Assembly (NCBI RefSeq): GCF_003334385.1 | Contig: NZ_QOWN01000112.1 | DNA: 1,434 nucleotides | Strand: one strand, 5' to 3' | From: Escherichia coli | GTDB taxonomy: Bacteria > Pseudomonadota > Gammaproteobacteria > Enterobacterales > Enterobacteriaceae | Shown: piece by piece, positions 78 to 713 of the stretch | How positions within the stretch are numbered: the first letter of the stretch is position 1 | Layout of the letters: the number at the start of each line of letters is the position of its first letter | The notes under the pieces: model-generated | Seen by the model: the letters and a program-made list of their open reading frames with translations, nothing else | The model's database searches: none | Told to the model about the DNA's origin: nothing | Made by a program: the position numbers and the translations under genes

Positions 78-605
78 GGCGATCCGCCCCTCTTCGAGCG
101 CCAGGCGCACCGATGGATGAGTTTGCAAATTAGCCAACTGAGCAATGACGTTTTCACGTACCATCGCCGCAGCTTTTGACGGTAAATCGGAATGCGGGCG
201 CGCCTCATTAACGACGCGGGCTGAATCGGCATAACGCAGCCAGTGGGAGACGGCAGGCATATGGTCCATGCACTGACAGCTGGCAATGGCGGTCATCGCG
301 CCACAGTTGGAATGACCACAAATCACAATGTCAGATACCCGAAGCGCAGCGACGGCATACTCCACCGAAGCAGAAACGCCACCGGGTTCCGGCCCGTAGG
401 AAGGGACGATATTGCCCGCGTTGCGAATAACGAACAGATCGCCAGGCTCACGTTGCGTCACCAGCTCAGGGACCAGACGGCTGTCGGAGCAGGAGATAAA
501 AAGTGTGCGCGGGCTTTGCTGTGTCGCCAGCTGTTTAAACAAGGCTTCCCGCTTCGGAAATGCCTCGCGCTGGAATTTAAGGAATCCATCAATAATCTCT
601 TTCAC
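66..605 (-). CDS. cynT: Beta-class carbonic anhydrase CynT, 3'-truncated by the element junction (probable pseudogene). Native codons span 78-605 (176 codons); the last three codons (His-Lys-Arg) and the stop at 66-68 are read from the element end.
   Basis: The translation [30 protein letters not shown]... matches E. coli CynT as I recall it up to ...LALEEGRIA, then diverges (expected continuation LHGWVYDIESG..., full length about 219 aa). Zinc-ligand motifs CSDSR and HSNCG are retained. The start codon is GTG at 603-605 (- strand) with an AGAGG Shine-Dalgarno about 6 nt upstream (+ coordinates 611-615). Confidence 0.88.
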
Positions 606-713
606 CGTTAACCTCTGTCTGTCTCTGGAATGAGAGGCAGACTACTCGCCGATTGTCATAAGGTAAAAGTCTCATTTATGATGAGTTCCATTGGATTTAC
701 TTATAGGTTGCGA
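606..713. promoter_or_regulatory. cynR-cynT divergent intergenic control region (108 bp), expected to hold the overlapping divergent promoters and the CynR operator.
   Basis: The region lies between the divergent start codons of cynT (605, -) and cynR (714, +). LysR-type regulators typically bind in such regions and autoregulate. It is AT-rich relative to the flanking coding DNA. Confidence 0.55.
653..682 (+). promoter_or_regulatory. Candidate sigma70 promoter for cynR: -35 TTGTCA (653-658), 18-bp spacer, -10 TATGAT (677-682). It overlaps the dyad TCATAA (656-661) / TTATGA (676-681), a possible CynR operator half-site pair.
   Basis: Hexamers match the consensus TTGACA/TATAAT at 5/6 each with 18-bp spacing. 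The predicted transcription start is about 25 nt upstream of the cynR ATG at 714. The 6-bp inverted repeat with 14-bp spacer overlaps the promoter, as expected for LysR autoregulation. Sequence inspection only. Confidence 0.3.

What the first reader, a model, noticed from the sequence alone, without database searches (positions are those of the whole stretch)
603..615. cynT initiates at GTG
The only in-frame start that reproduces the known CynT N-terminus (MKEIID...) is GTG at 603-605 on the - strand, preceded by AGAGG. A non-ATG start is a minor feature, but automated callers can mis-set it.
Basis: seen in the sequence. Interest (0 to 1): 0.12.

Follow-up and report, generated by a model that had tools for sequence, protein, structure and literature searches.

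The report
Known GTG start of cynT
The E. coli carbonic anhydrase gene cynT does begin with a GTG codon behind a normal ribosome-binding site, as reference annotation already records, so the finding is correct but ordinary; in this window the gene is also cut short by an insertion sequence.

Summary
On the minus strand, GTG lies at 605-603. AGAGG lies at 616-612, six bases upstream. An in-frame TAG at 644-642 leaves no other ATG, GTG or TTG upstream. RefSeq starts the 219-residue K-12 CynT (WP_000658652.1) at exactly this base.

In 80 orthologous loci from other species the protein alignment begins at this codon. It is ATG in 75 loci and GTG in 5. Four of the five are the closest enterobacterial relatives. 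The 41 bases around the start are identical in 3,871 of 4,207 E. coli records that carry them. The two variants I inspected change bases upstream of AGAGG.

Of the 30 cluster members read, the 29 that are not N-terminal fragments begin MKEIIDG. The worry about mis-set starts therefore has no support here.

They cut cynT after codon 176 and cynR after about codon 214. This copy is therefore a pseudogene remnant.

Verdict: already known and of low interest. No N-terminal sequencing or initiation-profiling data were available.

The parts
603..605 (-). GTG initiation codon of cynT
   Evidence: Sequence. RefSeq K-12 cynT CDS starts here. It aligns with the start codon of 80 orthologues.
612..616 (-). 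Shine-Dalgarno element AGAGG (pairing core GAGGT at 615-611), 5-6 nt upstream of the GTG
   Evidence: -6.5 kcal/mol with the 16S 3' end. Invariant in 4 E. coli and 4 related-genus sequences.
642..644 (-). In-frame TAG that closes the reading frame upstream of the GTG, with no alternative start in between
78..605 (-). cynT codons 1-176, the native part of the beta-class carbonic anhydrase gene; the 3' end is missing
   Evidence: 100% identity to K-12. ORF. PF00484 Pro_CA is on record for the same 179-aa product. Codon 176 occupies 80-78.
66..77 (-). IS-derived tail of the truncated ORF (His-Lys-Arg, then TAA at 68-66)
1..77 (+). Terminal 77 nt of the transposase-distal end of IS186. Identity to IS186A runs to base 79. 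Bases 77-79 (GGG) also match the cynT target, so the junction is ambiguous by up to 3 nt.
   Evidence: Identical to the annotated end of IS186A in MG1655. An IS4-like IS421-family transposase lies next to the same junction in SCU-104.
1358..1434 (-). The same IS186 end, inverted. It is an exact reverse complement of 1-77, and the terminal identity is 79 nt in all.
   Evidence: The same junction occurs in E308 and 9 other complete genomes.
714..1357 (+). cynR, the LysR-type activator gene, truncated after about codon 214 of 299
   Evidence: NF008416 CynR equivalog, 385 bits, protein residues 1-215 on profile positions 1-216 of 300. RefSeq cynR starts at window 714. Truncation.
606..713 (.). cynT-cynR divergent intergenic control region. 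It includes the palindrome CTCATTTATGATGAG (671-685, T-N11-A type) and a promoter-like site TTGTCA-18-TATGAT (653-682, + strand).
   Evidence: The function of these sites is inferred, not tested.

Best explanation
GTG at window 605-603 (minus strand) is the genuine initiation codon of cynT, the cyanate-inducible beta-class carbonic anhydrase gene of the E. coli cyn operon.

The inferred mechanism is ordinary. The 30S subunit is positioned by pairing of GAGGU (615-611) with the 3' end of 16S rRNA. Initiator tRNA then reads GUG as fMet five to six bases downstream, giving MKEIIDG.... Because residue 2 is Lys, the Met should be retained; this follows from the known specificity of methionine aminopeptidase and was not tested.

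GTG is a derived state. Most orthologues have ATG at the same position, and GTG is shared by Escherichia and its nearest relatives that carry the gene.

In this window the gene is not intact. An IS186 end replaces everything after codon 176, and a second, inverted IS186 end truncates the activator gene cynR. The start site therefore heads a non-functional remnant.
For: Shown by tool results:
- GTG, AGAGG and the 6-nt spacer are present. An upstream in-frame TAG leaves no alternative start.
- The SD duplex of -6.5 kcal/mol is the best among the 12 in-frame candidates.
- The window is 100% identical to K-12, and the RefSeq cynT CDS of 219 aa starts at this base. O157:H7, PEC408 and E308 carry the same call.
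- All 80 orthologous loci align from residue 1. The codon there is ATG in 75 and GTG in 5. In 12 loci an in-frame stop lies 2-8 codons upstream.
- GTG and AGAGG are invariant in an alignment of 4 E. coli sequences and 4 related-genus sequences.
- The 41 nt around the start are 100% identical in 3,871 of 4,207 E. coli records.
- In the solved homologue 5swc, the Met at chain residue 20 aligns with residue 1.
- The 29 cluster members read that are not N-terminal fragments begin MKEIIDG.
- Truncation by IS186 is shown.

Inferred: the initiation mechanism itself, and retention of the Met.
Against: No direct experimental evidence for the N-terminus was available. The original cyn operon papers are not in the held library, and no initiation-site profiling or N-terminal proteomics was examined.

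Annotation agreement is not independent evidence, because one pipeline produced most of the calls.

The 336 E. coli records with one or two mismatches in the 41-nt stretch were not all inspected; only two were. In this copy the gene is truncated and its activator is broken, so little or no translation from this GTG is expected in the source strain.
Confidence: 0.93

Rival explanations
1. Translation really starts at an internal in-frame codon, such as TTG at codon 22 (window 542-540) or GTG at codon 49, giving a shorter CynT. On this reading the GTG at 605 is only the first possible start of the ORF.
For: Such codons exist. TTG22 has a weak purine-rich stretch upstream, with a duplex of -4.8 kcal/mol.
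Against: Residues 1-21 are conserved across 80 orthologues, starting exactly at codon 1 (M-K/Q/R-x-I/V-I-D/E/N-G-F-L). At that position 75 orthologues have ATG. Residues 1-20 align with the solved homologue 5swc. The SD at the GTG is stronger than at any internal candidate.
Confidence: 0.03
2. Translation starts upstream of the GTG at a non-canonical codon, giving an N-terminally extended protein.
For: Twelve sense codons lie between the TAG at 644-642 and the GTG.
Against: None of the 12 codons is ATG, GTG, TTG, CTG, ATT, ATC or ATA. They overlap the SD itself. The upstream sequence is not conserved as protein in orthologues, and in-frame stops lie at widely varying distances of 2 to 196 codons.
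Confidence: 0.01
3. The two inverted IS186 ends on the window are an assembly artefact, for example a mixed population or a graph mis-join. On this reading they are not two IS186 copies flanking one 1.28-kb cynT'-cynR' segment in a single genome, and cynT might be intact in some cells.
For: None of 5,426 complete E. coli genomes carries both junctions. One has the cynT junction and ten have the cynR junction. The window looks like a short-read contig that stops a fixed distance inside a repeat. Metagenome contigs also stop shortly after entering the same IS.
Against: Each junction is independently real and recurrent in finished genomes and many public assemblies. The window carries both on one uninterrupted sequence with no wild-type continuation. 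IS186 is present in many copies in some strains, with up to 44 matching places per genome.
Confidence: 0.12

Closest known systems
cynT (b0339) of E. coli K-12, carbonic anhydrase 1, RefSeq WP_000658652.1
   Same: The DNA is identical over window 77-1357. It has the same GTG start, the same SD, and the same divergent arrangement with cynR.
   Different: The window copy lacks codons 177-219. It ends in three IS-encoded residues and a stop. cynS and cynX are not attached within the window.
cynT orthologues in other Proteobacteria (Pseudomonas, Burkholderia, Rhizobium, Serratia and others)
   Same: The N-terminus is at the same position, the first ten residues are conserved, and a purine-rich SD lies 5-9 nt upstream.
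   Different: Of the 80, 75 use ATG. GTG occurs in Yokenella, Pseudocitrobacter, Citrobacter amalonaticus and one Pseudomonas.
cynT::IS186 pseudogene of E. coli SCU-104 (NZ_CP053284.1)
   Same: The IS186-cynT junction is identical. RefSeq annotates it as cynT, incomplete and missing the C-terminus.
   Different: SCU-104 keeps an intact cynR, whereas the window also has the cynR::IS186 junction seen in E308 and nine other genomes.

Membership tests
CynT, the cyn-operon beta-class carbonic anhydrase | Sequence identity to reference CynT | tested here: met
   Window 77-1357 is 100% identical to K-12 MG1655 DNA, and residues 1-176 equal WP_000658652.1.
CynT, the cyn-operon beta-class carbonic anhydrase | Beta-carbonic-anhydrase (Pro_CA, PF00484) domain | tested here: met
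   A PF00484 hit is on record for the identical 179-aa product. Strong matches to solved beta-carbonic anhydrases: 5swc at 2.8e-56 and 1ekj at 4.5e-32. No NCBIfam model reaches its cut-off.
CynT, the cyn-operon beta-class carbonic anhydrase | Divergent from cynR and followed by cynS and cynX | tested here: inconclusive
   cynR is divergent at 714 onward. cynS and cynX are not in the window because the IS186 end intervenes. They are present in K-12 and in related loci.
CynT, the cyn-operon beta-class carbonic anhydrase | Full-length 219-residue product | tested here: not met
   The ORF is 179 aa: 176 native residues plus HKR, then a stop read from IS186. This copy is a truncated pseudogene of the family.
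Canonical Shine-Dalgarno-led initiation at a GUG codon | First start-type codon after an in-frame stop, with an SD 5-9 nt upstream | tested here: met
Canonical Shine-Dalgarno-led initiation at a GUG codon | The position is homologous to the start codon of orthologues | tested here: met
   80 of 80 loci: ATG in 75 and GTG in 5.
Canonical Shine-Dalgarno-led initiation at a GUG codon | Experimentally determined N-terminus or initiating-ribosome footprint | not testable with these tools
   The original papers are not held. No profiling data were accessible.
IS186 (IS4 family; RefSeq labels it IS186/IS421) insertion | Terminal sequence identical to a curated IS186 copy | tested here: met
   Window 1-79 equals the end of IS186A in NC_000913.3. 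Window 1358-1434 is the exact reverse complement of 1-77.
IS186 (IS4 family; RefSeq labels it IS186/IS421) insertion | Transposase gene adjacent to the junction, and a target-site duplication | tested here: inconclusive
   Neither is visible in the window, which holds only the terminal 77-79 nt. In E308 the same cynR junction has a complete element of about 1.34 kb. Its duplication is GGCTACATCC, which is 10 bp, or 6 bp if the flanking G/C bases are counted as part of the IS. In SCU-104 a transposase gene adjoins the cynT junction.

The most novel reading that the evidence does not exclude
The ATG-to-GTG change at the cynT start is shared by Escherichia, Yokenella, Citrobacter amalonaticus and Pseudocitrobacter, while other orthologues keep ATG. 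It could be a selected down-tuning of carbonic anhydrase output relative to cyanase from the same mRNA, rather than a neutral substitution. Separately, the 1.28-kb cynT'-cynR' segment between two inverted IS186 copies could behave as a composite, invertible or mobilisable unit.
Probability: 0.12. Interest if true: 0.15.

Novelty: already known. Interest (0 to 1): 0.05.

Why it matters
It matters little. GTG starts are common in E. coli, and this one is already in the reference annotation, so nothing changes for cynT biology. The practical value is for annotation. In this window the gene should be called a truncated pseudogene: cynT::IS186, together with cynR::IS186. It should not be called a 179-residue carbonic anhydrase, which is how at least one public record names the identical product. 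The source strain is predicted to lack cyanate-inducible expression from this locus.

Tried and rejected
- I looked for the primary cyn operon papers by PubMed and PMC ids recalled from memory, and for the IS186 target-site paper (SaiSree 2001). None is held.
- Full-text searches for cynT with 'start codon' or 'N-terminal' found nothing that bears on the native N-terminus.
- NCBIfam has no model that reaches its cut-off for CynT, so the gene name rests on identity to the RefSeq protein.
- Rfam found no RNA family in the window.
- The simple promoter scan found no sigma-70-like site on the cynT strand. That is not surprising for an activator-dependent promoter, and I did not pursue it.
- I considered reading an exact assembler k-mer size from the 77-79-nt terminal repeat. 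I dropped this because the IS/target boundary is ambiguous by 3 nt, and the k141 metagenome contigs do not stop at exactly 141 nt either.

Full report
**What is in the sequence.** Window 603-605 is CAC on the + strand, which is GTG on the - strand. The minus strand around it reads ...CAGAGACAGACAGAGGTTAACG GTG AAA GAG ATT ATT GAT GGA....
- The spacer to the GTG is TTAACG, 6 nt.
- Upstream in frame, 12 sense codons separate the GTG from a TAG at 644-642. None of them is ATG, GTG or TTG, or the near-cognates CTG, ATT, ATC or ATA.
- The ORF from the GTG translates to [16 protein letters not shown]....
- The next canonical in-frame start is TTG at codon 22.
- The duplex between the -20..-4 region and the 16S rRNA 3' end is -6.5 kcal/mol. 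That is the strongest of the 12 in-frame ATG/GTG/TTG candidates and within the top 5% of minus-strand positions in the window.

It describes a normal start site, not an anomaly.

**What gene it is and how it is annotated.** Window 77-1357 is 100% identical to E. coli K-12 MG1655. In that record cynT (WP_000658652.1, 'carbonic anhydrase CynT', 660 nt, 219 aa) runs on the minus strand. Its first base corresponds to window 605. cynR starts at window 714 on the other strand. The same 219-aa protein accession is annotated in E308, in an O157:H7 strain and in PEC408. The GTG start is therefore already the reference annotation.

**Comparative test of the start position.** A scan of one genome per species returned 80 loci that encode close CynT relatives, at 74-95% identity. 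All of them align from query residue 1.
- At that aligned position the codon is ATG in 75 loci and GTG in 5.
- The five are Yokenella regensburgei, two Pseudocitrobacter, Citrobacter amalonaticus and one Pseudomonas.
- The first ten residues follow the pattern M-K/Q/R-x-I/V-I-D/E/N-G-F-L-K/R/Q.
- The upstream in-frame sequence is not conserved. The nearest in-frame stop lies from 2 to 196 codons upstream, and within 8 codons in 12 loci.
- A purine-rich SD-like element (GGAG, GAGG or AAGG) precedes most of the starts.

The start position is therefore conserved across the family. GTG is a derived state shared by E. coli and its nearest relatives that carry the gene.

**Conservation within E. coli and close relatives.** An alignment of four E. 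coli sequences with the four closest genera shows GTG and AGAGG invariant. Within E. coli, the 41 nt centred on the start occur in 4,204 of 5,426 complete genomes. They are 100% identical in 3,871 of 4,207 records. I inspected two variants, and both change bases 5' of AGAGG. O157:H7 has a C-to-T change, and PEC408 has lost one ACAG unit. The other variant records were not inspected.

**Protein-level support.** The best solved homologue is 5swc (E = 2.8e-56). Its Met at chain residue 20 aligns with residue 1 of CynT: MQRLIEGLQKF against [11 protein letters not shown]. The preceding 19 residues of that chain are presumably an expression tag; I did not check this.

**Do gene callers agree?** I read 30 members of the two public protein clusters that hold the intact and the truncated product. 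The 29 that are not N-terminal fragments begin MKEIIDG. The exception sits on a 320-base contig. Gene calls in the ten resolved public loci also give 219 aa. The remark that automated callers can mis-set this start has no support in this sample.

The first and last 79 bases of the window are exact reverse complements of each other.
- Bases 1-79 are identical to the annotated end of IS186A in MG1655, the end downstream of the insL1 transposase gene.
- Bases 77-79 (GGG) also match the cynT target, so the junction is ambiguous by up to 3 nt.
- cynT is interrupted after codon 176. The ORF then reads His-Lys-Arg and a stop from IS186, giving 179 aa instead of 219.
- cynR is interrupted after about codon 214 of 299.

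**How common the two junctions are.**
- The cynT junction occurs in one complete genome, SCU-104, where RefSeq calls cynT 'incomplete; missing C-terminus'.
- The cynR junction occurs in ten complete genomes. In E308 it belongs to a complete element of about 1.34 kb. The target duplication there is GGCTACATCC, which is 10 bp, or 6 bp if the flanking G/C bases are counted as IS.
- No complete genome has both junctions.
- Both truncated products are on record in many public assemblies: 140 index blocks for the CynT product and 103 for the CynR product.
- Both target sites have a G-run, a short spacer and a C-run: GGGCGATCCGCCCC in cynT and GGGGCTACATCC in cynR. From memory, this fits the reported IS186 target preference. 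I could retrieve only the title of the paper that defines it, from the reference list seen.

**Interpreting the double junction.** The window most likely is a short-read contig that stops just inside a repeat at both ends. Metagenome contigs with the same junction also stop shortly after entering the IS. It would represent a 1.28-kb cynT'-cynR' segment between two inverted IS186 copies. This is an inference. An assembly artefact cannot be excluded without long reads.

**Mechanism.** The following are shown:
- the codon, the SD and its spacing;
- the closed frame upstream;
- positional homology with the start codons of orthologues;
- the truncations.

The following are inferred from general knowledge of bacterial initiation:
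- the 30S subunit pairs with GAGGU;
- initiator tRNA reads GUG as fMet;
- the Met is retained because residue 2 is Lys.

Also inferred is that this copy is inactive. The product lacks 43 C-terminal residues, the remnant is no longer followed by cynS and cynX in the window, and the activator gene cynR is truncated.

**Comparison with what is known, and verdict.** This is the known cynT start site, so the finding is already known and of low interest. The most novel reading left open is that the lineage-specific ATG-to-GTG change tunes CynT output, or that the IS186-flanked segment acts as a composite unit. Neither has positive evidence. The direct experiments are N-terminal sequencing, initiation-site profiling under cyanate induction and start-codon mutagenesis. 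None of these could be run here.

Noticed in passing
window 1-79 and 1355-1434: Both window ends are the same end of IS186 in inverted orientation. They truncate cynT after codon 176 and cynR after about codon 214. Among 5,426 complete E. coli genomes, one has the cynT junction, ten have the cynR junction and none has both.
   Followed up: yes
L003 (NZ_CP053284.1, SCU-104) 1-2577: In SCU-104 the IS186 copy at the cynT junction has iap on its far side, not the rest of cynT, cynS and cynX. That points to an IS186-mediated rearrangement.
   Followed up: no
L095 (GCA_047262435.1) 3706-6705: In this assembly the IS186 at the cynR junction is followed by a large invasin/intimin-like gene, not the rest of cynR and codA. 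This is another apparent rearrangement at the same IS.
   Followed up: no
window 653-685: The palindrome CTCATTTATGATGAG (671-685) fits the T-N11-A pattern of LysR-type operators. It is conserved in E. coli and four related genera. It overlaps the -10 hexamer of a promoter-like site (TTGTCA-18-TATGAT, + strand) upstream of cynR. It is a candidate CynR operator and cynR promoter; this was not tested.
   Followed up: partly
window 612-624: The SD sits at the end of a short ACAG repeat (AGACAGACAGAGG on the minus strand). Strain PEC408 has lost one ACAG unit, and O157:H7 has a C-to-T change in the repeat. Both leave AGAGG and GTG intact.
   Followed up: partly
window 630-716: The cynR reading frame stays open upstream to an ATG at 630, giving a mechanical 262-aa ORF, with further in-frame Met codons before the annotated ATG at 714. 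The risk of a mis-set start therefore applies more to cynR than to cynT. RefSeq and the CynR NCBIfam profile (residue 1 on profile position 1) both support 714.
   Followed up: partly
P0016 and P0017 (public protein clusters): The IS-truncated 179-aa product is deposited as 'Carbonic anhydrase [Escherichia coli]' (CAM7012411.1). A 202-aa frameshifted variant diverges at the same ...LEEG codons, that is, at the G/C-run that is also the IS186 target.
   Followed up: no
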